Counted from the first letter of the stretch, positions 29,135 through 53,762 are shown. The stretch: 64,000 bases of DNA from Dehalococcoidia bacterium (GCA_965116945.1 OZ220734.1:158980-222979), one strand, 5' to 3'. Made by a program: numbers and translations. The notes: generated by a model from the letters alone, not told the origin.

Positions 29135-29261
29135 CCCCGGGGAACAATCCCTGGCTCGCGAGGCACGGAGCAAGCGGGCGTCCGGCTGCGGTTGGGCGCC
29201 CGCATCGGCGGGAATTGCGCCCCGGCGCCGAGCGGCCCGAAACGCAAAAGAGGACGCGCAC

Positions 29262-29549: not shown

Positions 29550-29607
29550 TATCCATGTCTGTACACGTAAGCAAGCATGACTTTAGGAGCGCGACAGGAG
29601 GGCCTAC

Positions 29608-29949
29608 ATGGGCAATATCGAGACCATTAGATATCAAGGCACGGCGATTACTGTACAGTTGTGCGATGCCAACCCGGACGTATTCCGTTACAAGTTAGGT
29701 CGCAACGAGGACATGGACAATGCCGATGCGGTGCTGACTTTCGACCACAGTGCCGGAGCGGGCAATCGATGGATAGCTGTAGTGGGCGATCGCAACAAAG
29801 CGTTTCCGGGTTTGTTTGAAGCGGACGAGTATATCCTCAAATACCTCGTGACATTGATGGCACAACGCGCTGCAAAGGAGCAGCGCATCAAGGACATTTT
29901 GGATGAGGCTACGGATTACCTGGCTCGACGTGCTCGGATAAGGCCCTAA
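29608..29949 (+). CDS. Hypothetical protein (113 aa)
   Basis: An ORF with normal-looking composition. No recognisable motif. Confidence 0.4.
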   Translation: MGNIETIRYQGTAITVQLCDANPDVFRYKLGRNEDMDNADAVLTFDHSAGAGNRWIAVVGDRNKAFPGLFEADEYILKYLVTLMAQRAAKEQRIKDILDEATDYLARRARIRP

Positions 29950-30161
29950 CACGGAATGGGCGGCACAGGTCTTTAACTGGTGAAAGGAGTTGTGCCTTAG
30001 TGTCGAGTAAGACTGTACGAATGAGTAGTGTCGCACGAGCCTCAAGAAAGGGGCCCAAGCTCATGAGCAACAAGGCTCAGTTTCTATTGCTTGCGCTTCT
30101 ATTCATGAAGATGGCCGTCATCGTCGCCTCGGTCATCGTACTGTTCTTCTAGGAGGACCAC

Positions 30162-36100: not shown

Positions 36101-36123
36101 ATTTGTACTATCGCCTGCCTTCT

Positions 36124-37587: not shown

Positions 37588-37603
37588 CTTCCAACGTGTC
37601 GCC

Positions 37604-40600: not shown

Positions 40601-40750
40601 TTCGCCCGGTACAAGAGGGAGCTTGGTAACCACGTACTCTTGGCTAGGGGAGTCGTCTCCCGACATGACGGCACCACCAATGTTACCCTGTCCAGCGTGA
40701 AGACGTTGGACGTCGGGACCCGAATGCCTGCCGCCCACGACTGGCATTGA
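37604..40750 (+). CDS. dnaE2: Error-prone DNA polymerase III alpha-type subunit DnaE2
   Basis: N-terminal PHP YTELHLKSFYSFGMGASH. Pol III alpha core motifs (DIDLDF, IRPGV, HAFAVTAY). C-terminal OB fold. About 1050 aa, without the beta/tau-binding tail length of DnaE1. ATG 37604 follows the imuB stop (37585-37587). Confidence 0.9.
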   Translation: MTASYTELHLKSFYSFGMGASHTHEMLAQAREHGYGTLALTDTNLCGALEFARLAGSLDIRPITGGELTLTDGTRLVLLARTRRGYANLSRLFTLANAVDRREPRLDPVHLAHHSEGLVLLTGGREGPVSRLLLDGRRGEAGALLKEYMEWHGPDSVYVELQRNFLEGDNDLVRDSVSLAREMGVPLVASNDVHYHDPKRYRLQHSLVAARLNTTMEQALSHIRPNHHLHLKSPSQMTELFSDFPEGLSNSLRIAEKCEFNLASDLGYTLPEPAVPSGYTADSYLKRLCSEAAQRRYGAVTPEVEARLEEEFLLIGRHKLAGFLLLYREIVLLAQKIMEEKGLAHPEMPLEERPPGRGRGSSVALLVGYLIGISHVDPLRWGLTLERFIPEDMTTLPDIDLDFPRALRDELIECVHRHFGPEFAVLAGAVSTYSVKGIIQDLGKALGLPKEDLRMLSKQLHSHDARDLKGEMLELPAFREKVDAPGWRDLLQLAPQLMNAPRSLGQHVGGMILSDSPLPEMVPIRESAIQGRYIMDWNKDSTADAGFAKIDLLSLPVLDQIEEALDLVEQREGSRPDISAIDPEDNGVYEMLSEGRSKGVFLLQSPAQLKMGQRLRPRNLLDLAYQVALIRPGVGVQGSAVSKFVDRYRHGVEWDYDHPLERRALERGYGIIVWQEQVVQLISDVAGMKTSEADEIRRAFARPNSAHLIAMHRRRFLEGALANGVPRDIAERIFEKINGHYMFPESHSHAFAVTAYQAAWLKSHHPLEFFVALMNSQPMGFYPMETVKEDARRFGVPFLNPCMNRSGVNCIPEKDSVLLGLGKVRDVGEESAKLIVQERERHGPYSGAGDLVRRTGLKTQTVHSLVMAGAFDGVTPNRREALWDAGLPVRPPRNGQRAMPVSAAASIPELPDFTDKEKMAGEYTVMGIYPRGHVMEFVRPTLPSNVFCAADIDSLPEGERVLVAGWPVARQHPRGMEGTVFVTIEDETGDVQLIVWPRVFARYKRELGNHVLLARGVVSRHDGTTNVTLSSVKTLDVGTRMPAAHDWH

Positions 40751-40796
40751 GGGGACTGCCCCACTGGTGGGATAATCGTGTGGGAGGGCAAAAGAC

Positions 40797-41462
40797 GTGT
40801 GCGGAAGATACACCCTGATAGCCGACATCGGAGACCTGGCCCAGCGCTTCGAGTTCGACGGCTCAGACTTCAGCTATGATTCTGGCTACAACATTGCACC
40901 CACCGACAGCGTGCTCACGGTGAGAAATGTCGAGGGCCGGGAGGCGGCTTTCATGCGCTGGGGCCTGATACCCTTCTGGGCCAAGGACCCGAAGATCGGC
41001 GCCCGGATGATCAACGCTCGTGCCGAGACCGTCGCCGAGAAACCCGCCTTCCGAAACGCACTAAAGAAACGCCGCTGCCTGGTCCTCGCTAACGGCTACT
41101 ACGAGTGGCAGAGGACGCCGACCGGCAAGAGACCCTTCCGCATAATCCTGAAGTCCGGGGAGCCGTTTGCCATGGCTGGGCTATGGGAGACCTGGAAAGA
41201 CCCCCAGGGCAACGTCGTCCCTTCCTGCACCATCATCACCACCTCCGCCAACGACTATCTTGCCCCCATCCACAACCGGATGCCCGTTATTTTGCCCAGG
41301 GACTCGGAGGAGTTGTGGCTCGATTCGAGAATCGACAATCCGGCTTCGCTAACCTACATGTTCGCCCCAAGTCCCGACGATGCGCTGGACGCCTACCAGG
41401 TCTCCACGATGGTGAACTATGCGCGCAACAACGGACATGAACTCCTAGCTCGATTAAGATAA
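40797..41462 (+). CDS. yedK: SOS response-associated peptidase (SRAP/YedK family) abasic-site processing protein
   Basis: Begins MCGRY (catalytic Cys2), then WGLIPFWAKD ... NARAETV ... RRCLV ... GYYEW ... HNRMPVIL, which are SRAP signatures. Confidence 0.85.
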   Translation: MCGRYTLIADIGDLAQRFEFDGSDFSYDSGYNIAPTDSVLTVRNVEGREAAFMRWGLIPFWAKDPKIGARMINARAETVAEKPAFRNALKKRRCLVLANGYYEWQRTPTGKRPFRIILKSGEPFAMAGLWETWKDPQGNVVPSCTIITTSANDYLAPIHNRMPVILPRDSEELWLDSRIDNPASLTYMFAPSPDDALDAYQVSTMVNYARNNGHELLARLR

Positions 41463-41681
41463 GATTCAGTGGTGATGCAAGTGCCATAGCAGGAATTACT
41501 AATACGGCATTTTCGATGCACCAGCAGCAGTTGCTCTTTCCCTGGAGGACGGTCATGCCCGCAGAGCTGATGAAGCCAAGAGTTCACACGCGCCAGCATC
41601 AGTCGGCAACCAGATCTCAATACAGCTGGGTAATAACCCTTGAGAAAGAATGAGTCCAAAACATACAATTGCAGAAGAGAG

Positions 41682-43625
41682 ATGAATGAGAATGGTCAAA
41701 CAGAGAACGCAATGACCAGCAGTAACCATAGTAATCCTATGTGGAGATTTCCTGCGCGAAACGGTGGTATTGACTTCGTTGCGGATCCTTCCAGCGCCCA
41801 TTTCAGTGATGCACCGATTACCAAGCTAGTACGTGAGCTCATTCAGAATTCCCTGGATGCCAAGGACCCTGGATTTAGGACACCCGTAACGGTTGAATTC
41901 ACTGAAACGAACATTGACCGAGACGAAATCGGCGGCGAAGAGCTCCAGCAGCATCTGGCAGCTTGCTTCGACCGCTCCGCCAGAGAAGGCAGAGCGAGAG
42001 CCATGGCTACTTACAAGGGGGCCTTGGACATTTGTCGCCAGAAATCAATTCGTTGCCTGAAAGCCCAGGATTTCGGCACTGTGGGACTGGATGACACCCG
42101 TTGGCATGCGCTGGTGGTCCAGGAGGGTGCAGTCAGCAAAACGGGTCCTGCCCCGAGCGGGTCCTTTGGAATCGGCAAGAACGCGGCCCTTAACGTCTCA
42201 GATTTGCAAACCGTGTTTTATTCGACAAGGTACGTATCGGGGCGTTGGGGAAGAGTGGAGAAGATGCAGGGGAAGGCTACCCTCATGGGGCACGACGCCC
42301 CCGGCGACGGGGAGGAGCAGCTTCAACATATCGGGTTCTATTCTGAATCAAACGGCTACCCGATCATGGGCAGGGCCATCGCACCGTCATTCAGGCTTGG
42401 GGAAACAGGGACTGGCGTCTTTATCCTGGGCTTCAACCCCCGCTCCTCCAATTGGGTTGAGGAAATGACCAAGGCGGTAATAGATAATTTCTTTCATGCA
42501 GTGTCTGGTGGAAAGTTGGTAGTTAAGGTCAAGGCTTACAAGGGGAAGAGCCCCGTACTCATCGACCATGAGACCATCGACTCCTTGTTTCAGGCAGAGT
42601 CTGTGGAGGGAAGCAACACCGCGCACTATTACAGGGCGATCAGGGACGTAGAATTCCAATCGACGCCGCGCTTGGCTCCTTTAGGTTCGCTCATGGTTCA
42701 TGTCGTATTTGGGGAAGGCGCACCCCGGCGTACCGCCCTGGTCAACCGCAATGGCATGATGATTTCCGACAGCAAGGACCTTCGCATAAATCCCCTGTCC
42801 CCAAGGGGCAGGGGAGTATGGCCGGATTTTGCCGCCGTAGTAATGCCAGGAAGTGATCGAGGAGATCTATGGCTTAGGTCCCTAGAGAATCCCAGCCATG
42901 ATTCACTGTCCACCGAGCAGCTGCCCACGGAGGCGGAACGCGGGGATGCCAACAAGCTGTTCAAGAGGATCCGGTCTGAAATTGCGGATATCATCGAGGG
43001 CCTGGCTGGTATTGGGGAATACGTCAATGAGTCAAACATTGACGAGCTCAACGGCGTCCTGCCTGATTTGGGTCAGGGAGCTGACCGCGCGCTTCTGTCG
43101 ACGGAATTGGCGCCTCCGGCAGCCGGGGGGTCCGGAGAGTGGTTCGAAGTCGACGTGACTGGAGAAGGAATCCAAGAGGACATTAGGGGTTGGGACTCGG
43201 AGGAGTTGGAAGACCAGGGCAATGAGTCGCAGTCTGAAGAAAATGACGGCGCCGAGGAAGCAAGCACTACCAACGTTGGACCATACAAGAGCGGTGGCGG
43301 CGAAGGCCAACATTCGGCCAAACGCCGGAGGCTGATGAACATGCGCGTTATCCCAATTTCCACTACCGAGGCCGTATTGGCGTTCGACTCCCCGGAGGAA
43401 GCGAGTGATGAGTTAAGCATCTCCCTTGTTCCCGTGGGAGTAGACAGGGACGCGCGTCTCAGCGACAGGCTAACGGTTCTTGAAGCACGAGCTCTACAGG
43501 GCATAGAAGCTCCAATAGGCATCGAAGATGGACAGATTACCTTCACTCCCGCCCTCAATGGCCGCGTGAGCATAAGGGTCGTAGTGGATGGAAACATCCA
43601 GCAAACGGCCCTTAGGGTGAGCTAA
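41682..43625 (+). CDS. GHKL (Bergerat-fold) ATPase-like protein, module A
   Basis: N-box ELIQNSLDA, G1-like QDFGTVGL, G2 GSFGIGKN. Acidic low-complexity region, then a C-terminal beta-rich domain. The ORF is open from 41640 (TTG), and ATG 41682 is the preferred start. Confidence 0.7.
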   Translation: MNENGQTENAMTSSNHSNPMWRFPARNGGIDFVADPSSAHFSDAPITKLVRELIQNSLDAKDPGFRTPVTVEFTETNIDRDEIGGEELQQHLAACFDRSAREGRARAMATYKGALDICRQKSIRCLKAQDFGTVGLDDTRWHALVVQEGAVSKTGPAPSGSFGIGKNAALNVSDLQTVFYSTRYVSGRWGRVEKMQGKATLMGHDAPGDGEEQLQHIGFYSESNGYPIMGRAIAPSFRLGETGTGVFILGFNPRSSNWVEEMTKAVIDNFFHAVSGGKLVVKVKAYKGKSPVLIDHETIDSLFQAESVEGSNTAHYYRAIRDVEFQSTPRLAPLGSLMVHVVFGEGAPRRTALVNRNGMMISDSKDLRINPLSPRGRGVWPDFAAVVMPGSDRGDLWLRSLENPSHDSLSTEQLPTEAERGDANKLFKRIRSEIADIIEGLAGIGEYVNESNIDELNGVLPDLGQGADRALLSTELAPPAAGGSGEWFEVDVTGEGIQEDIRGWDSEELEDQGNESQSEENDGAEEASTTNVGPYKSGGGEGQHSAKRRRLMNMRVIPISTTEAVLAFDSPEEASDELSISLVPVGVDRDARLSDRLTVLEARALQGIEAPIGIEDGQITFTPALNGRVSIRVVVDGNIQQTALRVS

Positions 43626-43626
43626 T

Positions 43627-44484
43627 ATGCCGACCTTATGGCATCAACGCGCGCTCCCCTACCCACTCTTGGCCGGGTGGACCGGGGATTATCGGGACTG
43701 CGCATTCGGATTCTCTGAGACCAAAGCCACCCTTCGCAACGGCTCATCTATCGAGATTAAGCTTAAACTGCAGTTGAGCTCAGCATACCTGCAAGGTCTC
43801 GTGGAAAGTGGTGATGCCCAATTTGTTGTCGATGTGTCGTGTCCAAAGACGTTTCTGAAACAAACCCAACCCGTCAGCACCCTGGACAGCGTGAATCTAA
43901 ACGCTGCCGACTGTGCCGAGGAGATCTTTCTCACGCCCCAAATTGTGGCATCGGCCCCTCTCAACGACTTCATTTCGAGTGAACACGCTCCGGAGTGGTG
44001 CGAGCACAGACCAGATGGGTTCAGCATTCCGGAAGCCAGTCTCCTAGCGGTGGGAAACGTCGTCCGGATCGCCATAGAGGAAACGGGCATCAATTCCGTC
44101 ATAGACTTAGTCGCCAATTCTCATGTGGACGACGGCATATTCCAGGTGGAACTGGAGGGGGAGCGAATTAAGATTCACGTTTCTCCGAGCGACAAGGAGC
44201 GCATCGAATCCCTCAGGCAGCGTAGAGGTAGCGACAACGCCGGGTTCGCCGGACTGTATCCGTCCTTGTACTTGTCGGCAGTTTCGGAGGCATTGAGGCA
44301 ACTGCAGCACCATGAGAATTCCAGGTGGGCGTTCGCCATAAGACTAGCGCTTGAGAAATGCGGATTCGGAAATGTACCTGCGGACTCAATCGCCGAAAAT
44401 TCCTTGTTTTATGCACAGCACATCCTGGAGCAACCAATTAGTGGATTCCTGGACGCTGCAACGACCCGTGAAGAAGCGGAATGA
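43627..44484 (+). CDS. Module A partner 1 (285 aa), paralogue of 51022..51831
   Basis: Starts 1 nt after the upstream stop. Shares LQGLVESGDAQFVVDVSCPKTFL with LQSLVDQDKARWALELRCPTTLL of the module B protein. Confidence 0.6.
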   Translation: MPTLWHQRALPYPLLAGWTGDYRDCAFGFSETKATLRNGSSIEIKLKLQLSSAYLQGLVESGDAQFVVDVSCPKTFLKQTQPVSTLDSVNLNAADCAEEIFLTPQIVASAPLNDFISSEHAPEWCEHRPDGFSIPEASLLAVGNVVRIAIEETGINSVIDLVANSHVDDGIFQVELEGERIKIHVSPSDKERIESLRQRRGSDNAGFAGLYPSLYLSAVSEALRQLQHHENSRWAFAIRLALEKCGFGNVPADSIAENSLFYAQHILEQPISGFLDAATTREEAE

Positions 44485-46112
44485 AAGATAAGCATCCAGT
44501 CTATAGGTTGACGCAGGAGGCGTACGACCAATTGTGGCTTGCGGCTTCGGAATGCCCGGAAGCCTATCTCGATCCTAGAAGGGACTTCGAGGAAGTGCTC
44601 AGAGGTCGCGGAGTGACAGACTACCTTGAGGAAACTAGCCTCTTCTCTAAGGGTCCCATTGAACTAGAACCCGTGGAATCCGGACCCTCAAACAGGGCGG
44701 ACGTGCAGTCGTTGCGATTCCATCGCTCCCTTGAGGGAATGACGCCCCGCCTGGCATTGGACGAGCGCCTTTGGACGTGGATGACCCACTTCCCCTTGCA
44801 TGCCTACAGCATCAAACGATGGTCTAGATCGAAGAACACCAACTTAGTCAATTACGTCAGGGCTCACTGGTTTCACAATGGCTCGGGGGACGCCCTTTGG
44901 CGTCACAATACGGCGTCTCGCACTTGGTGGCTAGGGCACATAGCGACAAAGGCCGCAGAAGGTTCGGCTGGAGCCTTCAAGGCGGGGGACGCCATCAAGG
45001 CTTTTTCCGATACCGCGGTCTTCTATCATCTGCCCATGTATTACAACTTCACCAGAGAGCCCATGGTATTGGGAGAAGTTGTACGGGCCCTACTCAACGA
45101 GGCCGAAGGCATCAAGGCAGAAGAGGGATTGTACGCTCTGCTCAAGGTACTCAACCTCGCAGGTGGGATACAGGTCCTGTCCATGTTGCCGCGCCTAACC
45201 CTTCGAGAGCGCATAGTTGACGAGGTTGAGCGGATCATGTCGAACCCGGACCTAGTCAGAGACCGCACGAAAATTCGCAACAGGAAGGTCTTCAGATCGC
45301 TCAGCTTGGGAGCAGGGGTTCAATCCACGGTTTTGGCCCTCATGGCCGAACGGGGCGAACACGGGCTTCAGAAGCCGGACGTGGCAATATTCGCGGACAC
45401 CGGCTGGGAGCCACCTTCCGTCTACGAGCATCTGGAATGGTTAAAGCAGCAAGTATCCTTCGAGATCGTCACGGTCGGATCGGGAGACATCAAAGATAAC
45501 ATCCTGGCCGGCACCAGCCCGGACGGTAACAACTACCTGGGTATCCCAGCATGGCTTGTCAACCCTGACGGAAGTCCGGCTGTAGCAGCCCGGCAATGCA
45601 CCACGAAGTACAAGATAAAGCCCATCAATCAGTACTTGCGCCACCGTCTCGGATTTACTCCGGGACGCCGTGCTCCGAAGGATGTCGAAGTCGAAATATG
45701 GATGGGAATAAGCGTTGACGAAATCTTTCGAATGAAGGACAGCCGGGAGGAGTGGGCGCGAAACCGCTACCCGCTAATCGAGCTGGGTTTGAGCCGTGCC
45801 CAACTCCAGGATTGGTTTGAGGAAAACTATCCCGGCCGCTACCTGCCAAGGAGCGCATGCATCGGTTGTCCCTACAAAAGCGACGGTGAATGGAAGTGGT
45901 TGAAGAGTAACGATCCCAAGGCATTCGAAGAGGCCATATTCGTTGACAAGGCGCTGCGCGACATACCCGTCGTTCGTAACGCTATTACAAGGAACGGAGC
46001 AACTGCCTATCTGCACAGTTCTCGAAGACCTTTGGGCGAAGTAGACCTAGAGAGCGCAAGGGACTACGACCAAGTCATGGCCGACGAATGCGATGGAGTT
46101 TGCAGGGTTTAA
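44481..46112 (+). CDS. Module A partner 2 fused to a PAPS-reductase-family (PP-loop ATP pyrophosphatase) domain
   Basis: ATGA overlap with the upstream gene. The N-terminal ~260 aa resembles 51828..52832. The C-terminal part carries LSLGAGVQSTVLAL (variant PP-loop), RQCTTKYKIKPI, MGISVDEIFRMKDS and SACIGCPY, as in DndC/phage-type PAPS reductase-like proteins. Confidence 0.7.
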   Translation: MKDKHPVYRLTQEAYDQLWLAASECPEAYLDPRRDFEEVLRGRGVTDYLEETSLFSKGPIELEPVESGPSNRADVQSLRFHRSLEGMTPRLALDERLWTWMTHFPLHAYSIKRWSRSKNTNLVNYVRAHWFHNGSGDALWRHNTASRTWWLGHIATKAAEGSAGAFKAGDAIKAFSDTAVFYHLPMYYNFTREPMVLGEVVRALLNEAEGIKAEEGLYALLKVLNLAGGIQVLSMLPRLTLRERIVDEVERIMSNPDLVRDRTKIRNRKVFRSLSLGAGVQSTVLALMAERGEHGLQKPDVAIFADTGWEPPSVYEHLEWLKQQVSFEIVTVGSGDIKDNILAGTSPDGNNYLGIPAWLVNPDGSPAVAARQCTTKYKIKPINQYLRHRLGFTPGRRAPKDVEVEIWMGISVDEIFRMKDSREEWARNRYPLIELGLSRAQLQDWFEENYPGRYLPRSACIGCPYKSDGEWKWLKSNDPKAFEEAIFVDKALRDIPVVRNAITRNGATAYLHSSRRPLGEVDLESARDYDQVMADECDGVCRV

Positions 46113-46262
46113 GACTATCCGCTATTCCTCCTGGTTGCCACCTCTCCCTGTGACGGACCGAACTGCATTATAGAAGGTTGCAGTACATCAACGGAGCCAT
46201 TTTCATCGAGCTGCAAGCAGATGTGCTATGTATTGGGACCGAATGACTTATGGAGAAACCGA

Positions 46263-48578
46263 ATGGTGAATCAAGTTAGGGATCTGTTCGAAGCGGAGGC
46301 GGGTAGCTTTGGGGACACGATGATGGCTCATAACGGGGTTGTTGGCTACAAAATCCCTGAGTATCAGCGGCAATACAATTGGAAACGGGAACACCTAAGG
46401 AGATTGATTGTTGATTGCCTGAATGGCTTTTATAGGCTATCCACATCGTCTGATCCAGAATACGCTTTTCTAGGTAGCATAATTTTGGCGAAAGAAAGTC
46501 AAAGCGAACCAACATTCGATGGCTCTTCATTGATTGTCGTAGATGGTCAGCAACGACTCACTTCCCTCATTCTTATGGCATGTGCTCTATTTCAGCGAAT
46601 AAGGAAGCATAGGGCCGACATTGTGAAGCTGACTTTAGATACTCAGCATTGGCTGAACGCGGAGATCGACACACAGCTGAGCCAGCTTCATCGATGTGCA
46701 ATTGGCCAGTTGGTGCGACTTGGAAGCACGTATCCATATCCACGTTTAATTCGCTTCAAGGATCATCGAGGTGATTCCGCGGGACAATCGGAGTACCGGT
46801 CCCCCATTGGCCGATTCTTGAGGCAATTTGCGGATCATGCCATCAAACCAAATCCGACGTTTCAACCGAAGTTGGTTGATGAGGACGCGCCAGGTAGCCA
46901 TGTCGTGTCGAGCTTTGAGTACATCTGCAAGGCATTGGACAGATACCTCTATAGCCCCTGTTCACATTCTCCAGATGCTGACCCTGAAGAAGATGTCAAT
47001 GTTGTAGACAGAACTGAGTTTCAGAAGGCAAGCTATCTAAAGCTCTTCCGCCGTCGGGATTATCATCCAAAGCCATCAACAAGAGACCGCTGCGCTTCGG
47101 AACTTGCAAAATCGTCCGAAGCAGCGGGACTCGCACGCTTAGTCCTTTTTTCTTCTTATGTGACTCAGCGGGTAGTGCTGACTCGCGTTGAAGCCCAGAA
47201 TGAAACAGACGCATTTGACATCTTTGACGCTCTAAACACTACCGGTGAACCGCTCACTGCCCTAGAGACATGCAAGCCGCTAGTAATACAGTTCGAGAAC
47301 AAACATGACGGCTATTTGAGGTCTCAATTGCAGGAAGATTGGGAATCAATGGAGTCCAAGCTTGCCGAAACTTACAGGGAGCCTGGTAATCAGCAAATCG
47401 AGACAAAACAAATGCTTACGTCATTTGCCCTATATTTTGATGGACATAAGCTGCCGTTGGATCTCACTAATCAGCGCCGCTATCTACGGGACCGCTTCAG
47501 CAAGGCGCAGGCACAGAGTGCGGAAATAGCGCGAGGGTTTGTGGGTGCTCTGAGGGATTTGGTCGAGTTCCGAATACAATACTGGGACAAAACGGCGATC
47601 GATGGTCTGGGTGTGGGTGCGGTGGGGGCTAAAGAGGCCGATTTATTGAAACTTTGCCTCAGATTTATCGCAGACATGAACACTAGCCTTGCGATTCCAA
47701 TATTGGCGCGGTACTGGTCCGAATATGGTGAAGGGCATTCATTCCTTGCAGCGACGAAAGCCGTAACCGCGTTTCTAGCACTTCGAAGATCCGTCACGGG
47801 AGGCACGGCGAGAATCGACTCCGATTTCCGTCGATTGATGAGTAACCCAACAACCCTTGGCGGCGATCCTCTTTGCTTAGGTTCCAGCTTATCCCACCTG
47901 CCAATGTCGATCGAGATCCTCAGAGGGGAATTGAGAGAGTTTCTAAACGAACCAAGAATAGGTGTGCAAGACAAGGCGACATGGATTGCCAAGGCTAGGG
48001 AGGTAGAGTTCGGCGTACAAGCACCTAGGCCACTGTGCCGTTTTCTATTAATGGCCGCCAATCATAATGCGCGACCAGATGAGTCCCATCCTGGCCTTCT
48101 TACTGACAGTGATGTAATAGAAGGAGACGATCTTGACTTTTTGAATCACCGAAATTGGGTGGGCCCAAAGTACGCAACAGTCGAGCATATTGCCCCGGAC
48201 TCGGATCCAGGCCATGGATGGGAACGCAATATCTACGCGCGGACAGCAACTCGGCAACGGCTTGGCAACTTGCTTTTGTTGCCAGAGAAAGAGAATCAGA
48301 GCATTGGCAACTCGAAATGGCACCGAAAGAAGAAGTTCTATGCCGCGCTGGCAGCCAAGTCGAAGTCAGAGCGCGACGCTCTCATTGGAGACGCTAAGAG
48401 CCAAGGCTATAGATTCGGCAAAAAGACAGAGACTTTGCTTCTCAGTCAGGAACGCTTAGGTATGTTAGATCACCTGGTCGAAGTGAATAACTGGACTGCA
48501 AAACTAATTGAGCTGCGAACCGAGAGCCTCTTAGATCTAGCGTGGGATGAAATATCTCCCTGGCTGTTCGATGACTAG
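46263..48578 (+). CDS. DUF262 (DGQQR, ParB-like) + DUF1524 (HNH-like) protein, GmrSD/SspE-like
   Basis: YKIPEYQRQYNWKREHLRRLI, VVDGQQRLTSL. C-terminal VEHIAPDSD ... GNLLLLPEKENQSIGNSKW. ATG 46263 is preceded by GGAGA. Confidence 0.85.
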   Translation: MVNQVRDLFEAEAGSFGDTMMAHNGVVGYKIPEYQRQYNWKREHLRRLIVDCLNGFYRLSTSSDPEYAFLGSIILAKESQSEPTFDGSSLIVVDGQQRLTSLILMACALFQRIRKHRADIVKLTLDTQHWLNAEIDTQLSQLHRCAIGQLVRLGSTYPYPRLIRFKDHRGDSAGQSEYRSPIGRFLRQFADHAIKPNPTFQPKLVDEDAPGSHVVSSFEYICKALDRYLYSPCSHSPDADPEEDVNVVDRTEFQKASYLKLFRRRDYHPKPSTRDRCASELAKSSEAAGLARLVLFSSYVTQRVVLTRVEAQNETDAFDIFDALNTTGEPLTALETCKPLVIQFENKHDGYLRSQLQEDWESMESKLAETYREPGNQQIETKQMLTSFALYFDGHKLPLDLTNQRRYLRDRFSKAQAQSAEIARGFVGALRDLVEFRIQYWDKTAIDGLGVGAVGAKEADLLKLCLRFIADMNTSLAIPILARYWSEYGEGHSFLAATKAVTAFLALRRSVTGGTARIDSDFRRLMSNPTTLGGDPLCLGSSLSHLPMSIEILRGELREFLNEPRIGVQDKATWIAKAREVEFGVQAPRPLCRFLLMAANHNARPDESHPGLLTDSDVIEGDDLDFLNHRNWVGPKYATVEHIAPDSDPGHGWERNIYARTATRQRLGNLLLLPEKENQSIGNSKWHRKKKFYAALAAKSKSERDALIGDAKSQGYRFGKKTETLLLSQERLGMLDHLVEVNNWTAKLIELRTESLLDLAWDEISPWLFDD

Positions 48579-49107: not shown

Positions 49108-51018
49108 GTGCAATCATTGACGACCGTGAGCGCAGAATTAGTATTTCCCGAGTCTTGGCAACTGGATGGGTTCACCACCAACGTCACTAGTCGCCAGGCT
49201 GGCGAGCCTGATCCAGTCGTACGCGAGCTGCTCCAGAATTGTCTTGATGCCGCGGTACGTGAAGCAGATCGGGAATATGCAGAAATCCACTTTACAATTG
49301 CCAGGCGCTCCCTAGAAACGCTACCAGGTCGCGCAGCGTATGTTGAAGCCTTTCAATCAGCGAAGGCAGAGGTGAAATCTCTTCCAACCTACGACGTGAG
49401 GTCAGCTATTCGGCGAATCGAGCAAGTGCTCAAAGGGCAGGAAATGAGCGTTCTCTTCTGCAGAGATAACGGCGTAGGATTGAACCCCACTCGAATGAGT
49501 GCACTGCTGTCCGAGGGCCAAAGTGATAAAGCAAGGCAGGGTGCCGGTTCCTTCGGCTTAGGACACCTCACTGCATACGCTGCATCGGATCTGCGTTATG
49601 TCCTTTATTCCGGAAAGCGAGGGCTAGAAGAAATCGCTAGCGGGCATACGATCTTAGCCTCTCACAAACGAGGGCAAACTCGGTATTCCGCACACGGCTT
49701 TTGGCGTACTCCTACCGACATTTTTAGCCTGGAAGATGGCAACTTCCCCGATATTGTTCCAGGATTAATGCGGGATCAGATTGATCGAATCGACACGTCC
49801 GGTACGGTAGTTGCGATTGCCGGTTTCAACTTTTTCCACGAAGACACTCCCAGTGAGGCCTTGCAAGCAATCTGCCGGGTTGCTGCACTGAACTTCCTGG
49901 GCGCTATCTGGGAAGGGAAAATGAAGGTTCATGTCCACGACGAAGATTCGGGCCGCACTGCAACGGTCGACAAAGGTGCACTCCAAGCACTTCTCTCCTC
50001 TGTCCAGAATCAACAGAGAGCTTCCCATGCAGGGTGGCTTGCCGGGGAGCAAGGCTACCGAGCCTTGCAAACTCTCAACAACGGATATGTCCTTGAGGCA
50101 GAAATCGATCGGTCAATAAAGGTCTACTTTCGTAGCCTTAGTGCTAAACCAAATGAAAGATGCAGAGTTCAGGTGTTCCGAGATGGAATGTGGATTACCA
50201 ATAGAGCTCCGGAGCTGGGCCCAGGAGCCTTTACAGGAGTCCAACCATTCGATGCGGTTGTCCTTCTCAATGATGCTGACCCTGAGGACCACACAGAGTT
50301 TTATGATCTGGTACGAAATTCCGAAGGTCCTGAACACCGAGATCTTACGAAACTGCGGGAGCTTCCTAAAGAGAATCGTATGGAGCTCCGTAATATGTTT
50401 AGGAAGCTTGCCGAGCGCCTACGGGTGGAGGCCGGAGACCTTGACGTCGATGCAGGATTCACGCCTCCGGGCTTCGCCTTGTTTGGCGGTGACATGGAGC
50501 GGGTAGCGGAGCGTGTACGTCGTCCGATACGCCAACCAGACGACGGAAGTCAGGAGAGTGGTAAGCCAGGAGGAGCGGATGTGGAGAAGGGCCCAAGGCC
50601 TGAGCAACCGGGGACGAGATCTCCTCACGAGACCCCGCGGCGTGGCCCATCTAGAGGCCAGGCTCTGAGGGCACGCGCCTCACTTGTTCCCCAAAGTGGT
50701 CCTGACAATCTAGTCCGGCATCTCTCTGCTCAACTTCAAGTCAGAGAGGACCTTGGACCCAATGATCAACTCGTCTTGAGGGTTAGAATTCAGTCCGGAT
50801 CAGATGCTACCTGTGATCAGCCGTTGCCTGATACGTGGTTGGGGTTGTCCCATGTTAAGGTAGGCGACAAATCAATCGAAGCTGATGGGGCGTCGGAAGT
50901 CTATATTCCAAGCGATTGTAGGAGAATGACGATTAGTCTCCAAGAGCCTCTAAAGGACGCGGTTGGTGTTGCCCTAGATGTGATTAGGCGTAGAGCCAAG
51001 CAAACCACAGGGACATAG
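49108..51018 (+). CDS. GHKL (Bergerat-fold) ATPase-like protein, module B
   Basis: N-box ELLQNCLDA, G1 RDNGVGL, G2 GSFGLGH. Same overall layout as 41682..43625. GTG start. Confidence 0.7.
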   Translation: MQSLTTVSAELVFPESWQLDGFTTNVTSRQAGEPDPVVRELLQNCLDAAVREADREYAEIHFTIARRSLETLPGRAAYVEAFQSAKAEVKSLPTYDVRSAIRRIEQVLKGQEMSVLFCRDNGVGLNPTRMSALLSEGQSDKARQGAGSFGLGHLTAYAASDLRYVLYSGKRGLEEIASGHTILASHKRGQTRYSAHGFWRTPTDIFSLEDGNFPDIVPGLMRDQIDRIDTSGTVVAIAGFNFFHEDTPSEALQAICRVAALNFLGAIWEGKMKVHVHDEDSGRTATVDKGALQALLSSVQNQQRASHAGWLAGEQGYRALQTLNNGYVLEAEIDRSIKVYFRSLSAKPNERCRVQVFRDGMWITNRAPELGPGAFTGVQPFDAVVLLNDADPEDHTEFYDLVRNSEGPEHRDLTKLRELPKENRMELRNMFRKLAERLRVEAGDLDVDAGFTPPGFALFGGDMERVAERVRRPIRQPDDGSQESGKPGGADVEKGPRPEQPGTRSPHETPRRGPSRGQALRARASLVPQSGPDNLVRHLSAQLQVREDLGPNDQLVLRVRIQSGSDATCDQPLPDTWLGLSHVKVGDKSIEADGASEVYIPSDCRRMTISLQEPLKDAVGVALDVIRRRAKQTTGT

Positions 51019-51021
51019 AAG

Positions 51022-51831
51022 TTGCCCGAACTTTATCCAATGCTACTTGAAGACAGCTCATCGCTCGATTGGGAGGCGGCTTCATACTCAACAGAGTTGA
51101 TCGTTGGAGACGGTTACGCAACTGTCACGCACATGCTGAAAGATGCACCGCAACTCCAGTCACTTGTTGACCAGGACAAGGCGAGATGGGCGCTTGAATT
51201 GCGCTGTCCGACTACATTGCTGTCACGTTGGGAACTTAGTGAGACCACCGAATGCATGGCGAAGTGGGATCAGACGGAAGTCCAGGGTGAACTCTACTTT
51301 ACGCCGGGCATGATAACAATCAACCCAATTAGCCTAACTAGCGAAGGATTGAGCGATCTATGGACTTTTCCGATTAAGATCCCACGTGGTTGTTGGCTGG
51401 TCCGCGGAGACGTAACCCGCGCCAAGTCATTGGCTGCATCACTCTTGACGTTCCACTCCACATCGCGTCTCAGTGAGGGCGAAATGGAAGTGAGGCCCGA
51501 TATCAGTAGTGGAGACCTACACTTCAAGGTGTATGTGTCGGAGAAACTGTTTCCCCATTGCCCGATTCGGCGCGATCTGCAGATAGCGGCCCTAGTCGCT
51601 GCGTTTGGAAGGATTCCGCATCTGGACAACGAAGGTGACTCGGATGGAGATGACGAAGCTTCCGAATATCGCATCCTGAGCAGTATCAAGGAACGCCTGC
51701 GGGAGTTAAACGTACCAGTTTGGGGAGAAGGGCAGGATGAAAATTTCGATCCCGCACGCGCAGCGACAGCCATTGAACAGTTCTCTATAGATCAGTTGTC
51801 GACAGAACCAGGGGGCGACGACCCAGCATGA
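51022..51831 (+). CDS. Module B partner 1 (269 aa)
   Basis: Starts 3 nt after the upstream stop. Paralogue of 43627..44484. Confidence 0.6.
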   Translation: MPELYPMLLEDSSSLDWEAASYSTELIVGDGYATVTHMLKDAPQLQSLVDQDKARWALELRCPTTLLSRWELSETTECMAKWDQTEVQGELYFTPGMITINPISLTSEGLSDLWTFPIKIPRGCWLVRGDVTRAKSLAASLLTFHSTSRLSEGEMEVRPDISSGDLHFKVYVSEKLFPHCPIRRDLQIAALVAAFGRIPHLDNEGDSDGDDEASEYRILSSIKERLRELNVPVWGEGQDENFDPARAATAIEQFSIDQLSTEPGGDDPA

Positions 51832-52832
51832 ATCAGCTGAAGCCGGAAATCGAACAGAACTTCAGCGATTGGCAACGCAGTCTGGCAACTAGGGGCAGGG
51901 CAATGCCAGATTCTGTCGCCGAATGTCAGAAGAAACTACACAGTGTAGTTTCGGAGGGTCCGCTTAGGTTGGCTGCTTATTTGCGTGTCCAGTTAGGAAT
52001 TGACACCAAAGCATCCATTGAGGCTCCTTCTTTACCGTTACCCATAGGCGCGACTGAATATCGTGACCCTTCGTTCAGATTGGAGAGGACCTTGACCGAC
52101 TTTTGGGACGGCTTGATATGTCGCCGGGAGGCCTCGCGTCCTGTCTATTGGACCCTTGCACATATTCGCTGGCTCGAAGAAGGCCTGCTGGGAGACCAGT
52201 TAGAGGAAACCCTACTACGCGGCGGGGGGCGTGATTCTACGGATGATCAGCGTTCACGTAACCTGTTGAGAAGAATTGGAGGTTTGCCTCACGTGCGTGG
52301 CAAAGTCTCCGTATTGAGCGACTCTCCAATCTCTCGAGCATGGTGGCGGGGAACCGTAGCATCAGAAGTCGCAGAGGCGGCGGGAGATGACCTTGCTCTT
52401 AGTACTGCTGAGATCCATCGGGTACTCCATTCTCACAACGACGCCTGGGCTAGGCTGGTAGGTGACTCTGTCCATCGCATTACAGTGATGAATCAACCCC
52501 GCCTCCGCGCCGCCCTCATCAAACTCTATGAAGGTGCTTCGCGTGAGGGAAAGCCAATGCAACCCTCGGAAATGCAGAGCGTGGCCCGCCTCTTATCTCG
52601 ACACGGCGCCGCGCTTGCACTAAACCATATCGATTGGAATGCGCTTATCGAAATTGCTGGAGAGGCCTTAGAACGCGCCCGGGCGGAGGCAACGCCAGAA
52701 GCACAAAGCAAGGCTGCAGTCCGTGGAGAGAATTTACGCGCTGCTAGCCAAGAGGCTACAACCACGCAACCAAATGGGGCAGAAAGGCGCAAGTCGCGAT
52801 GGGCCTCCCTTTTGCCTTTCTCTAGAAACTAA
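51828..52832 (+). CDS. Module B partner 2 (334 aa), without a PP-loop fusion
   Basis: ATGA overlap. RPVYWTLAH and SRAWWRGTVASEVAE match ERLWTWMTH and SRTWWLGHIATKAAE of 44481..46112. Confidence 0.6.
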   Translation: MNQLKPEIEQNFSDWQRSLATRGRAMPDSVAECQKKLHSVVSEGPLRLAAYLRVQLGIDTKASIEAPSLPLPIGATEYRDPSFRLERTLTDFWDGLICRREASRPVYWTLAHIRWLEEGLLGDQLEETLLRGGGRDSTDDQRSRNLLRRIGGLPHVRGKVSVLSDSPISRAWWRGTVASEVAEAAGDDLALSTAEIHRVLHSHNDAWARLVGDSVHRITVMNQPRLRAALIKLYEGASREGKPMQPSEMQSVARLLSRHGAALALNHIDWNALIEIAGEALERARAEATPEAQSKAAVRGENLRAASQEATTTQPNGAERRKSRWASLLPFSRN

Positions 52833-52856: not shown

Positions 52857-53762
52857 ATGGCGAAAAGTCTGACTGATACTCTGCTAAAGAGGGTCAAATC
52901 AATTCGCGTTGCTTCGAGGCACGGGCGACGGTCTCCTCACAAGCCACTATTATTGTTATTGTCACTTGGGCGCTATCTAAATGGGGATGAGAGACTTCAG
53001 ACTTATGGCGACATTGAGGGAGTCCTAAACGGGCTGATCCGGCGATTTGGTTTACCCAATAGCAAAGAGAATCCCCAGTATCCGTTTTGGCATCTGCGTA
53101 ACGACGGGCTGTGGGAAATTGACAGACCCGCACTAGTGAGGACAACAACGTCAGGAGATGCTTATGTATCTGACCTGAGAGAACACGGCATTCGCGGCGG
53201 ACTAGCTCATAATGTACTGCGCGTCCTGGAGACTAATCCAATGCTTGCCTGGAATATGGTTCACTTACTCCTTAACGACTTCTTTCCACCGTCGTTACAT
53301 GAGGATGTGCTGATGGATACGGGCTTGGTCGGCAAAATAGGCCTAGGTGATTCGAATGGCAAAACAAAGACAGGCGGGGGACGGGATCGGGGGTTTCGAA
53401 AAATGGTGCTCCAAGCCTATCGGAATAGATGCGCTCTCTGCGGGTTAGATATACGAGTGTACGATCGCCCGATTGGGATTGAGGCTGCCCACATCAAGTG
53501 GCACACTGCGGGAGGACCGGCTGAAGTCGCGAATGGTATGTCTTTGTGCGTTCTGCATCATAAGTTCTTCGATGCGGGATTGTTCACTGTTACCTCCGCC
53601 CTCACCGTGCTAGTCGCAGGATTAGCTGAGGGGGACAGTGTTGTGGAATCGCTAAACAAGTACGACAGGGTAGTTCTTCCGATATACCCAAGACTCCTTG
53701 CCCAGCGACCAGCATCAGAGTATTTGGATTGGCATGCAAGGGCGGTGTTCCAGTCTACATAG
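52857..53762 (+). CDS. SBD-like N-terminal domain + HNH nuclease (ScoMcrA/SprMcrA-type putative phosphorothioate-DNA-dependent endonuclease)
   Basis: SPHKPLLLLLSLG and NPQYPFWHLRNDGLWEI match, as far as I recall it, the sulfur-binding-domain pattern. HNH: RCALCGL ... EAAHIKWH ... NGMSLCVLHHKFFD. Confidence 0.65.
   Translation: MAKSLTDTLLKRVKSIRVASRHGRRSPHKPLLLLLSLGRYLNGDERLQTYGDIEGVLNGLIRRFGLPNSKENPQYPFWHLRNDGLWEIDRPALVRTTTSGDAYVSDLREHGIRGGLAHNVLRVLETNPMLAWNMVHLLLNDFFPPSLHEDVLMDTGLVGKIGLGDSNGKTKTGGGRDRGFRKMVLQAYRNRCALCGLDIRVYDRPIGIEAAHIKWHTAGGPAEVANGMSLCVLHHKFFDAGLFTVTSALTVLVAGLAEGDSVVESLNKYDRVVLPIYPRLLAQRPASEYLDWHARAVFQST

What the first reader, a model, noticed from the sequence alone, without database searches (positions are those of the whole stretch)
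44481..48578. PP-loop (PAPS-reductase-like) domain next to a DGQQR/DUF262-DUF1524 protein: a DndC/DndB- or SspD/SspE-like pairing without the rest of a phosphorothioation pathway
The C-terminal half of 44481..46112 has the variant PP-loop LSLGAGVQST, plus RQCTTKYK, MGISVDE..R and CIGCPY. These are typical of the PAPS-reductase family, which includes DndC, SspD, BrxP and IbrA. The next gene is a DUF262 (ParB-like DGQQR) plus DUF1524 protein, the domain pair found in SspE and GmrSD. The DUF262 half is of the same kind as the DGQHR protein DndB. No cysteine desulfurase, DndD/E or SspB/C homologue is visible anywhere in the window. The chemistry could therefore be a different nucleic-acid modification, with the GHKL triad replacing the usual accessory proteins.
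Basis: partly seen in the sequence, partly recalled or inferred. Interest (0 to 1): 0.75.

Follow-up and report, generated by a model that had tools for sequence, protein, structure and literature searches.

The report
Likely new DNA sulfur-marking defence module
A defence-island operon joins an unannotated relative of the DNA-phosphorothioation enzyme SspD, fused to a conserved three-gene ATPase unit, to the phosphorothioate-sensing nuclease SspE; it is probably an undescribed way of writing that DNA mark.

Summary
Residues 263-543 of the 543-aa protein (44481-46112) form a PAPS-reductase-fold domain. By profile comparison its closest known relative is SspD (98.5% probability), not CysH (21.5%) or DndC (14.6%). 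The next gene is a full-length SspE. The domain belongs to a large, unnamed clade that I call PAPS-X, with at least 1084 clusters at 50% identity. In PAPS-X the PP-loop SGGxDS is replaced by G-[A/G]-G-x-Q-S, while the SspD cysteine pattern is kept. In all 44 loci that carry the fusion it is the third gene of a conserved triad: a GHKL ATPase, a beta-sandwich protein and DUF6339 (PADLOC candidate PDC-M33). No SspA, SspB, SspC, DndC or cysteine desulfurase lies within 10 kb in any of 81 loci. The partners downstream vary, and the same kinds accompany canonical SspBCD: SspE, helicase plus GHKL, and PbeA/PbeC. Other partners are SBD-HNH, DndB-like and other DUF262 proteins. SspE proteins 73-77% identical to this one sit beside either this unit or canonical SspABC, so the unit appears to fill the writer slot. 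My best reading, at about 0.55, is a GHKL-driven, SspD-like phosphorothioate writer read by SspE. The chemistry is untested, and the variant loop leaves room for a different mark.

The parts
41640..43625 (+). M33A, the GHKL (Bergerat-fold, Hsp90/sacsin-like) ATPase and first gene of module A
   Evidence: PADLOC PDC-M33A, E 3e-75. The motifs ExxQNxxD (E66-D73), DxxxxG (D144-G149) and GSxGxG (G174-G179) are conserved in 41 homologues. It lies directly upstream of M33B in all 44 fusion loci.
43627..44484 (+). M33B, a 285-aa subunit without a recognisable catalytic fold
   Evidence: PADLOC PDC-M33B, E 3e-25. The AF2 model (pLDDT 84.6) shows a beta-sandwich plus a C-terminal helical bundle. Foldseek finds only FnIII/Ig-like matches at E >= 2e-3. 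Its end overlaps the start of the next gene by 4 nt.
44481..45266 (+). N-terminal DUF6339 (M33C) domain of the 543-aa fusion protein
   Evidence: Pfam DUF6339, E 4e-25, and PADLOC PDC-M33C, E 5e-23. It is all-helical in the model. No relation to SspB or to any PDB sequence was detected.
45267..46112 (+). C-terminal SspD-like PAPS-reductase-fold domain (PAPS-X)
   Evidence: PADLOC SspD, E 9e-15. hhalign against a genuine SspD gives 98.5%, against CysH 21.5% and against DndC 14.6%. Foldseek confirms the PP-loop/PAPS-reductase fold.
45300..45329 (+). Variant PP-loop LSLGAGVQST, where SspD has SGGRDS
   Evidence: Invariant in 72 homologues. The pattern G-[A/G/V]-G-x-Q-S holds in the scanned family sequences that include the loop (the others are fragments or N-terminally cut), and none has Asp at that position. 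It aligns with SGGRDS of SspD and with SFGIQA of CysH.
45591..45875 (+). Conserved cysteines C373 (RQCT) and C460/C463 (CIGCPY), candidate Fe-S ligands
   Evidence: They align with RWCT and SGCTFC of SspD and are invariant. The Fe-S role is inferred from DndC and from TtuA-type enzymes.
46086..46103 (+). C-terminal cysteine pair ECDGVC on a low-confidence, probably flexible tail
   Evidence: A Cys pair lies in the last 10 residues of 205 of 226 family sequences, and SspD ends in CxxC. pLDDT is below 50 for residues 537-543.
46221..48578 (+). SspE, the phosphorothioate-sensing DUF262 NTPase plus DUF1524 nicking nuclease
   Evidence: PADLOC SspE, E 6e-229, end to end. Matches PDB 6jiv/7drs SspE at 304 bits over the full length, with the DGQQR and EHIAP regions conserved. 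It starts 108 nt after the fusion gene and no + strand terminator was found between them.
49108..51018 (+). Second GHKL ATPase (module B M33A)
   Evidence: PADLOC PDC-M33A, E 2e-25, and a sacsin-like ATP-binding domain. The same position after SspE is conserved in L002, L097 and L101.
51022..51831 (+). Module B M33B
   Evidence: Weak PDC-M33B hit, E 0.008. Conserved with its neighbours in L002, L004, L014 and L087-L094.
51828..52832 (+). Module B M33C, a DUF6339-like protein without a PAPS-X domain
   Evidence: Weak DUF6339 hit, E 0.007. It aligns with the fusion's N-domain and shares the invariant residues D74, R113, W114 and W150.
52857..53762 (+). SBD-HNH, a phosphorothioated-DNA-binding restriction endonuclease
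   Evidence: NCBIfam NF045808, 257 bits against a cut-off of 180. Matches the sulfur-binding domains of 7ccj/5zmo. It occupies the same position in L101.

Best explanation
Module A (41640-46112) is a DNA-modification writer of the phosphorothioation type, and SspE (46221-48578) is its modification-sensing effector. The catalytic part is an SspD-like sulfurtransferase domain (PAPS-X). I infer that it holds a [4Fe-4S] cluster on C373/C460/C463 and receives sulfur on its flexible C-terminal cysteine pair from a housekeeping cysteine desulfurase. In place of SspB (nickase and DNA binding) and SspC (AAA+ ATPase), the domain is fused to DUF6339 and works with the GHKL ATPase M33A and the adaptor M33B. 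These would supply ATP-driven DNA engagement and target choice. SspE binds the marked host DNA, which activates its NTPase and its nicking of invading DNA, as shown for canonical Ssp systems. The second triad, which lacks PAPS-X, plus the SBD-HNH nuclease probably form a further reader or effector arm of the same array. Shown here: the homology, the gene order, the conservation and the exchange of partners. Inferred: the chemistry, the sulfur route, the roles of the triad subunits and the functional coupling to SspE.
For: (1) The closest known relative of the domain is SspD. hhalign gives 98.5%, E 3.7e-15, PADLOC SspD gives 9e-15 and tblastn gives 27-29% identity. The two share DTGxExPxVY, RxCT, SxCxxC and a C-terminal Cys pair.
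(2) The triad order M33A-M33B-fusion is conserved in 44 of 44 loci.
(3) None of 81 loci has SspA/B/C, DndC or a cysteine desulfurase within 10 kb. The positive controls worked.
(4) The writer slot appears to have been replaced. SspE proteins 76-77% identical to the window's lie directly after the fusion in L097 and L101, as do those of L002 (after one intervening reverse-strand ORF) and L004. A 73%-identical SspE (L102) and 53-60%-identical ones (L098, L099, L105) lie beside canonical SspABC(D).
(5) Other partner modules are also shared with canonical Ssp. A helicase plus HATPase_c_3 GHKL pair accompanies PAPS-X in 27 loci and canonical SspABCD-SspE in L098. PbeA/PbeC accompany the fusion in 5 loci and SspCD in L100.
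(6) SBD-HNH lies next to the unit in 4 fusion loci, including the window, and in L101. A validated BREX type 4 phosphorothioate cluster likewise contains an mcrA homologue (PMC12914056).
(7) SspE is inactive without phosphorothioate (PMC8092258), yet it is intact and conserved here.
(8) There are precedents for reduced writers. BrxP is an SspD-SspB fusion that needs only BrxC and SufS, and TdpC works alone (PMC12914056).
Against: The PP-loop is not canonical: GAGVQS replaces SGGxDS, with Gln at the Asp position as in CysH. ATP pyrophosphatase chemistry is therefore not assured. No P-loop NTPase or nickase is present, although published work treats an NTPase as required. No sulfur donor gene is linked in any locus. 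SspE adjacency occurs in one lineage only (3 of the 44 census loci). SspE also has a lower GC3 (0.50) than module A (0.61-0.66), so it arrived separately. Two loci (L012, L016) carry the triad with no defence partner. The association counts come from related metagenome-assembled genomes (MAGs) and have no background rate. I could not search the rest of this genome for a canonical sspBCD.
Confidence: 0.55

Rival explanations
1. The architecture is the same but the chemistry differs. PAPS-X writes a DNA mark other than phosphorothioate, for example a stable adenylated or otherwise sulfur-derived backbone or base adduct. The adjacent DUF262-family proteins, including this SspE, have adapted to read that mark.
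For: The family-wide change of the PP-loop Asp to Gln, with Ser/Gly changed to Gly/Ala, is invariant and resembles the loop of the non-ATP-hydrolysing CysH. Partners include many non-SspE DUF262 proteins of unknown specificity: HEC-05-like in 7 loci and GmrSD-like in 5-6. No cysteine desulfurase is linked in 81 loci.
Against: SspE proteins 73-77% identical to each other pair with either canonical SspABC or this unit, which argues that the ligand is the same. The SBD-HNH partner is sulfur-specific. The SspD cysteine pattern is retained.
Confidence: 0.2
2. The genes are independent neighbours in a defence island. The M33 triad is a self-contained defence system in which PAPS-X acts as a sensor or effector against invading nucleic acid or nucleotides. 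SspE depends on a phosphorothioate writer elsewhere in the genome, or is an orphan.
For: PADLOC defines PDC-M33 as a three-gene candidate whose usual C component lacks the PAPS domain, and triads without PAPS exist. The downstream cassette differs even between 87%-identical relatives (L001 versus L002). The GC3 of SspE differs from that of module A. SspE also occurs with no writer within 7 kb (L106). The window is a dense defence island.
Against: The whole array of A triad, SspE and B triad (with SBD-HNH in L101) is conserved in L097 and L101 at 76% SspE identity. Twenty-five of 44 fusion loci have a DUF262/DndB-superfamily gene, nearly always directly downstream on the same strand. The triad itself has no recognisable nuclease or toxin domain. 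Stand-alone PAPS-X genes head their own cassettes with nuclease, helicase or DndB-like partners, as a modification gene would.
Confidence: 0.17
3. PAPS-X is an anti-defence or mimicry factor. It marks or masks DNA of a mobile element to escape phosphorothioate-dependent restriction, as proposed for phage PAPS reductases.
For: Stand-alone PAPS-X genes with the same motifs lie on 241 plasmids, beside ArdC-like and ParB genes of conjugative plasmids in the three examined. A paper reports that a phage PAPS reductase aids evasion of Dnd (PMC13551039).
Against: In the window the domain is fused into a chromosomal triad and followed by defence nucleases. The array is stably inherited among Dehalococcoidia MAGs. 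In any case, this reading still implies that PAPS-X writes a phosphorothioate-like mark.
Confidence: 0.05
4. The domain is an assimilatory PAPS/APS reductase (CysH) that happens to lie in a defence island.
For: The loop carries the G-[V/I]-Q of CysH, and the C-terminal EC-G recalls ECGLH. The best Foldseek target-normalised TM-scores (TMt), 0.50-0.54, are to CysH and APS reductase.
Against: hhalign against E. coli CysH gives only 21.5% over 67 N-terminal columns, against 98.5% for SspD. NCBIfam PAPS reductase gives E 0.16 for the window protein. The domain is fused to DUF6339, there are no cysI/J/D/N neighbours, and the context is always defence or a plasmid.
Confidence: 0.01

Closest known systems
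SspABCD-SspE (single-strand phosphorothioation and sensing system)
   Same: The effector is an SspE homologue. The writer domain is homologous to SspD, shares its Cys pattern and sits directly upstream of sspE on the same strand, as in canonical loci (L099).
   Different: There is no SspA, SspB (DUF4007) or SspC. The PP-loop is GAGVQS instead of SGGRDS. The domain is fused to DUF6339 and accompanied by a GHKL ATPase and a beta-sandwich protein.
BREX type 4 (BrxP/BrxC) phosphorothioation
   Same: An SspD-like domain is fused to a non-catalytic partner domain and works with one ATPase and a housekeeping desulfurase. An McrA-like SBD-HNH gene lies in the cluster (PMC12914056).
   Different: The fusion partner is DUF6339, not DUF4007. 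The ATPase is a GHKL, not the SspC-like BrxC. There is no BrxZ or BrxL. PADLOC BrxP models did not hit at the E <= 0.01 limit.
TdpABC (TdpC single-enzyme phosphorothioation via an adenylated intermediate)
   Same: It is a compact writer without the DndD/E or SspB/C accessory set. Stand-alone PAPS-X genes on plasmids suggest similar self-sufficiency.
   Different: No sequence or structure comparison with TdpC was possible here. Nothing named Tdp appeared in the PDB searches. The partner genes differ.
DndB/DndC and IbrB/IbrA pairs (ParB-superfamily protein plus PAPS-reductase-like enzyme)
   Same: There is a recurrent pairing of PAPS-X with DndB-like proteins (10 fusion and 11 stand-alone loci) or with other DUF262/ParB-superfamily proteins.
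   Different: hhalign against DndC gives only 14.6%. No DndD gene accompanies PAPS-X apart from the DndD-like PbeC, and DndE was not probed. IbrA was not tested directly.
PADLOC candidate system PDC-M33
   Same: Both triads in the window match the PDC-M33 A, B and C models in order.
   Different: The PADLOC C models (247-346 positions) lack the PAPS domain. No publication mentions PDC-M33 or DUF6339. The link to phosphorothioate genes is not recorded there.
MORC/MutL-type GHKL plus SF2 helicase restriction modules
   Same: A helicase, an HATPase_c_3 GHKL and a PLD-like gene follow PAPS-X in 27 loci, occupying the place of a methyltransferase-linked restriction module.
   Different: This module is absent from the window, where SspE stands in its place. 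M33A is a different GHKL type (sacsin/Hsp90-like).

Membership tests
Ssp system (SspABCD-SspE) | SspE: DUF262 (DGQQR) NTPase plus DUF1524 nuclease | tested here: met
   PADLOC SspE, 760 bits, end to end. PDB 6jiv, 304 bits, full length.
Ssp system (SspABCD-SspE) | SspD: PAPS-reductase-like ATP pyrophosphatase with an SGGxDS PP-loop | tested here: inconclusive
   Homologous to SspD (hhalign 98.5%), but the loop is GAGVQS and identity is only 27-29%.
Ssp system (SspABCD-SspE) | SspB (DUF4007 nickase) and SspC (large ATPase) adjacent | tested here: not met
   tblastn found no hit in the window or in 80 loci. The probes work on L098, L099 and L105. hhalign of DUF6339 against SspB found nothing.
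Ssp system (SspABCD-SspE) | Cysteine desulfurase SspA or IscS | tested here: not met
   None in the window or the loci. A housekeeping enzyme can substitute in known systems (PMC12914056), so this is not decisive. The rest of the genome was not searchable.
PP-loop ATP pyrophosphatase superfamily | Rossmann-like fold with strand, P-loop and helix | tested here: met
   AF2 model with pLDDT 90.6. Foldseek hits GMP synthetase, LarE, TtuA, CysH and APS reductase.
PP-loop ATP pyrophosphatase superfamily | SGGxDS signature | tested here: not met
   G-[A/G]-G-x-Q-S is the pattern in the family sequences that include the loop.
Pfam PAPS_reduct (PF01507) | Score above the gathering threshold | tested here: not met
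   17.8 bits against 22.5 for the window protein. All 40 relatives hit at E <= 1, with the best at 2.4e-5.
DndC | Match to a DndC profile and a DndD/E context | tested here: not met
   No NCBIfam DndC hit at E <= 10. hhalign gives 14.6%. No DndD lies beside it apart from PbeC-like genes. DndE was not probed.
Assimilatory CysH | Full-length similarity, ECGLH tail and cys operon context | tested here: not met
   hhalign 21.5% over 67 columns. The tail is ECxGxC. The context is defence.
PDC-M33 (PADLOC candidate) | Three co-oriented genes that match the M33A, M33B and M33C models | tested here: met
   E 3e-75, 3e-25 and 5e-23 for module A. Module B gives 2e-25 and 0.008, with DUF6339 at 0.007.
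GHKL ATPases | Bergerat motifs I-III | tested here: met
   E66/N70/D73, D144/G149 and G174-G179 are at least 90% conserved in 41 proteins. The NCBIfam sacsin-like domain matches module B.
PT-dependent SBD-HNH endonucleases (ScoMcrA-like) | Sulfur-binding domain plus HNH | tested here: met
   NF045808, 257 bits against a cut-off of 180. HNH_2 is present. SBD structures 7ccj and 5zmo match.
Any phosphorothioation writer | Phosphorothioate dinucleotides in DNA that depend on the genes | not testable with these tools
   This needs LC-MS/MS, iodine cleavage or PT-seq.

The most novel reading that the evidence does not exclude
PAPS-X is not a phosphorothioate writer. With its invariant CysH-like Gln loop and conserved cysteines, this large unannotated enzyme family installs a chemically new DNA mark. 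A GHKL ATPase machine delivers it, and SspE-like, DndB-like and other DUF262 nucleases read it. Conjugative plasmids use the same enzyme as a fast self-marking, anti-restriction tool.
Probability: 0.18. Interest if true: 0.9.

Novelty: new variant of a known kind. Interest (0 to 1): 0.72.

Why it matters
By the 2026 account in PMC12914056, four phosphorothioate-writing systems are known: Dnd, Ssp, Tdp and BREX type 4. If this one is confirmed it would be a fifth. It would use a GHKL ATPase and two unknown proteins in place of a P-loop NTPase and a nickase.

It would also give a function to three sets of proteins: Pfam DUF6339, the PADLOC candidate PDC-M33, and more than 1000 clusters of "hypothetical" SspD-like proteins. 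These include proteins on 241 plasmids in the collection searched, 115 of them Agrobacterium plasmids.

The interchange of writers in front of nearly identical SspE proteins offers a natural experiment on how phosphorothioate readers and writers are matched. The variant loop offers a test of which PP-loop residues DNA sulfur insertion really needs.

Tried and rejected
- CysH identity is rejected (hhalign 21.5%, N-terminal region only). DndC identity is rejected (14.6%; no NCBIfam DndC hit).
- SspFGH as the identity of the triad is rejected. There were no PADLOC SspF/G/H hits, and the paper describes Walker A and FtsK-like proteins, not GHKL.
- DUF6339 as a divergent SspB/DUF4007: hhalign probability 0.2%. 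DUF6339 against PDB sequences found nothing.
- The M33B structure gave only a generic beta-sandwich plus helices and no functional lead.
- A sequence search of PDB with the PAPS-X profile found nothing significant.
- Foldseek could not discriminate between PP-loop subfamilies. The best E was 8e-4 and target-normalised TM-scores were at most 0.54 against PDB and 0.60 against viral models.
- The promoter and terminator scan of 41.3-54.4 kb gave no more sites than shuffled sequence and no + strand terminator, so operon boundaries remain open.
- Literature searches for DUF6339, for PDC-M33, and for phosphorothioate plus PAPS reductase plus GHKL returned no papers. The Aravind-group reappraisal of Dnd does not mention GHKL or DUF6339.
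- Cluster look-ups gave no source names beyond "hypothetical protein".
- I could not inspect model coordinates to test whether the cysteines cluster.


Full report
**Anatomy**

Nine co-oriented genes lie between 41640 and 53762.
- Module A has three genes. M33A (41640-43625, 661 aa) is a GHKL ATPase matching PADLOC PDC-M33A at E 3e-75. M33B (43627-44484, 285 aa) matches PDC-M33B at 3e-25. The third gene (44481-46112, 543 aa) overlaps M33B by 4 nt.
- The N-terminal half of that 543-aa protein is Pfam DUF6339 (4e-25), which corresponds to PDC-M33C. Its C-terminal half matches only the PADLOC SspD model (9e-15).
- After a 108-nt gap comes a 785-aa protein. It matches the PADLOC SspE model end to end (E 6e-229) and solved SspE structures over its full length (6jiv/7drs, 304 bits).
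- A second triad without the PAPS-like domain follows (49108-52832). After it comes a 301-aa SBD-HNH endonuclease, NCBIfam "phosphorothioated DNA-binding restriction endonuclease", at 257 bits against a cut-off of 180. Its N-terminal part matches the sulfur-binding domains of 7ccj and 5zmo.
- The surroundings are a defence island. It holds a TIR plus ORC/CDC6-like protein, a CARF-like protein, a methyltransferase, a GmrSD-like protein, Mokosh-like genes and an integrase.

**Check of the observation**

The motifs are invariant or nearly so in 72 homologues of 57-87% identity. They persist in stand-alone relatives at 45-49% identity.

The AF2 model of the whole protein is confident (pLDDT 90.6, pTM 0.77). 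It places the loop between strand 269-276 and helix 280-291. The last seven residues, which carry the Cys pair, are disordered. Foldseek returns only PP-loop/PAPS-reductase-fold proteins from PDB and phage PAPS reductases from BFVD.

Pfam PAPS_reduct is hit by all 40 family members tested, but mostly below the gathering score. NCBIfam gives nothing significant. This explains why sources call these proteins "DUF6339 family protein" or "hypothetical protein".

**Which PAPS-reductase-like enzyme is it?**

I took a genuine SspD from a canonical sspA-B-C-D/sspE locus on a Sphingomonas plasmid, E. coli CysH and an annotated DndC. A 40-sequence profile of the domain aligned as follows:

| Compared with | hhalign probability | E-value | Aligned columns |
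|---|---|---|---|
| SspD | 98.5% | 3.7e-15 | 193 |
| CysH | 21.5% | 1e-3 | 67 |
| DndC | 14.6% | 1.8e-3 | 124 |

Features shared with SspD are DTGxExPxVY, RxCT, SxCxxC followed by EW...P..F.EAV, and a C-terminal cysteine pair.

The clear difference is the PP-loop. Five canonical SspDs have SGG[RK]DS. The sequences of this clade that include the loop have G-[A/G/V]-G-x-Q-S, and none has Asp at that position. The Gln aligns with the Gln of the CysH loop SFGIQA.

The loop is nevertheless atypical for an ATP pyrophosphatase.

I call the clade PAPS-X. It has 1084 representative clusters at E <= 1e-30, most of them stand-alone proteins of 260-300 aa.

**Context of the fusion**

A scan of one genome per species returned 43 fusion loci and 37 stand-alone PAPS-X loci. 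They come from MAGs of Dehalococcoidia, Caldilineaceae, Acidimicrobiia, Arenicellales and the archaeal Nitrosopumilaceae/Cenarchaeum.
- In every fusion locus the order M33A-M33B-fusion is kept and tightly packed.
- tblastn with IscS, SspA, SspB, SspC and DndC found nothing in the window or in any of the 80 loci. The same probes gave E values of 1e-60 to 1e-176 in canonical loci.
- What follows the fusion varies:

| Downstream partner | Fusion loci (of 44, window included) |
|---|---|
| SspE | 3 |
| GmrSD-like DUF262 | 5-6 |
| HEC-05-like DUF262 | 7 |
| DndB-like | 10 |
| SBD-HNH | 4 |
| PbeA plus PbeC | 5 |
| SF2 helicase plus HATPase_c_3 GHKL plus PLD-like protein | 5-6 |
| Second triad without PAPS-X | 4 |
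| Housekeeping genes only | 2 |

- Twenty-five of the 44 loci have a DUF262/DndB-superfamily gene, nearly always immediately downstream on the same strand.
- Stand-alone PAPS-X genes head helicase-GHKL-PLD cassettes in 22 of 37 loci. In 11 of 37 they head cassettes of a small GIY-YIG-like protein plus a DndB-like protein.
- Triads without PAPS from metagenomes also neighbour PbeA/PbeC (L088) or SBD-HNH plus an HEC-05-like protein (L089).

**The most informative test**

I searched for relatives of the window's SspE and read their neighbourhoods.
- SspE proteins of 76-77% identity in L097 and L101 sit in the same array as in the window: A triad with PAPS-X, SspE, B triad, and in L101 also SBD-HNH.
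- L107 (76%) has the fusion plus helicase-GHKL-PLD 6.6 kb away.
- L102 (73%) lies beside SspA, SspB and SspC, which are fragmented.
- L098, L099 and L105 (53-60%) lie beside intact canonical SspABCD.
- L100 (48%) lies beside SspCD plus PbeA/PbeC.
- L098 also carries a helicase and a GHKL that are 41% and 34% identical to the PAPS-X-linked pair.

Closely related SspE proteins, and the same accessory effector modules, therefore pair either with canonical SspBCD or with PAPS-X units. Published work shows that SspE is inactive without phosphorothioate in host DNA (PMC8092258). The simplest reading is that the PAPS-X unit fills the writer slot.

**Mechanism proposed (inferred)**

M33A has intact Bergerat motifs in 41 homologues. 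It would supply ATP-dependent DNA engagement, which is the role SspC, DndD and BrxC play elsewhere. M33B is a beta-sandwich plus helical bundle with no catalytic fold, and I take it to be an adaptor. DUF6339 tethers the SspD-like domain.

The three cysteines C373, C460 and C463 resemble the three-Cys [4Fe-4S] sites of TtuA/NcsA-type thiolases and of DndC (established knowledge; not tested here). The flexible C-terminal Cys pair could accept a persulfide from IscS or SufS, much as SspD binds SspA (PMC7188994).

There are precedents for reduced writers. BrxP is an SspD-SspB fusion that needs only BrxC and SufS. TdpC acts alone through an adenylated DNA intermediate. An mcrA-type gene lies inside a validated BREX type 4 cluster (PMC12914056).

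**Caveats**
- The variant loop may mean different chemistry.
- No linked sulfur donor, P-loop NTPase or nickase exists.
- SspE adjacency is confined to one lineage. SspE, module B and SBD-HNH have GC3 of about 0.50, against 0.61-0.66 for module A, so the cassettes have separate histories.
- The counts come from related MAGs, with no background rate.
- The rest of this genome could not be searched.
- Stand-alone PAPS-X genes with the same motifs are carried on 241 plasmids. In the three conjugative plasmids I examined they lie beside ArdC-like and ParB genes. That fits a self-sufficient marking enzyme, but it also allows an anti-defence role (PMC13551039).

**Verdict**

This is an SspD-like enzyme of an unannotated clade, built into the PDC-M33 GHKL triad and followed by a true SspE, with no other Ssp or Dnd biosynthetic gene nearby. 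It is most likely a new variant of phosphorothioate-type modification and sensing defence (confidence about 0.55). A chemically different mark (about 0.2) and mere neighbourhood (about 0.17) are the main rivals.

Noticed in passing
window 18000-30000: This segment has 66-71% GC, against 50-58% in the rest of the window. It holds a hybrid GAF-PAS histidine kinase/response regulator (18550-20994, minus strand) and a 2598-aa protein with DUF5122 beta-propeller, Big_2 and cadherin-like repeats (21338-29134, plus strand).
   Followed up: partly
window 9109-13618: Three co-oriented genes overlap one another: a TIR plus ORC/CDC6-like protein (764 aa), a CARF-like protein (319 aa, PADLOC CARF6 6e-33) and a type II DNA methyltransferase (425 aa). 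They may form a separate defence system.
   Followed up: partly
window 14194-16572 (minus strand): A 792-aa protein combines DUF6575 with a GmrSD_N (DUF262) domain and resembles PDC-M55C and HEC-05. It is a second DUF262 protein in the window, unlinked to module A.
   Followed up: no
window 36103-41462: By my reading of the translations, these are an imuB-like Y-family polymerase, a dnaE2-like error-prone polymerase and an SOS-response-associated peptidase; no family search was run on them. They lie directly upstream of module A and have much higher GC3 (0.72-0.77) than the defence genes.
   Followed up: no
window 54351-59422 (minus strand): A Mokosh-like pair: a PLD-domain protein matching MkoB (1e-46) and a 1184-aa Ser/Thr kinase fused to an SF1 (AAA_11/AAA_12) helicase.
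   Followed up: no
plasmid loci L081, L082, L083 (for example NC_008386.1 74755-75591): Stand-alone PAPS-X homologues (about 43% identity, with the same GAGVQS, RRQCT, SACIGCPY and ECEGxCG motifs) occur on 241 plasmids, 115 of them Agrobacterium. They are annotated as hypothetical. In the three conjugative plasmids examined they lie just after ArdC-like (DUF1738/zincin) genes and near large ParB genes.
   Followed up: partly
L098 1542-5017; L001 11604-15525; 22 stand-alone loci: A module of SF2 helicase (about 415-540 aa), HATPase_c_3 GHKL (about 620 aa) and, beside PAPS-X, a PLD-like protein of about 285 aa accompanies PAPS-X. The helicase-GHKL pair also lies beside a canonical SspABCD-SspE locus. 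It may be an undescribed restriction module that depends on phosphorothioate.
   Followed up: partly
L003 11502-18933; L104 1-5293; L108 9584-16318; L100 12086-17081: A recurrent five-gene module lies next to fusion loci, SspE and canonical SspCD. It comprises an ~800-aa protein with a Sigma70_r4-like HTH, PbeA-like helicase, a ~72-aa protein, PbeC/DndD-like ATPase and a ~143-aa protein (DNA_S_mod_dnd_assoc_4).
   Followed up: partly
L053 9384-9776 (minus strand): A fragment 53% identical to the C-terminal half of genuine SspD abuts a stand-alone PAPS-X gene. This is the only place where the two clades were seen together.
   Followed up: no
loci L018, L019, L021, L026, L028, L040: The full M33A-M33B-fusion triad occurs in archaeal Nitrosopumilaceae/Cenarchaeum MAGs at 45-49% identity to the bacterial proteins. 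This indicates transfer between domains of life.
   Followed up: no
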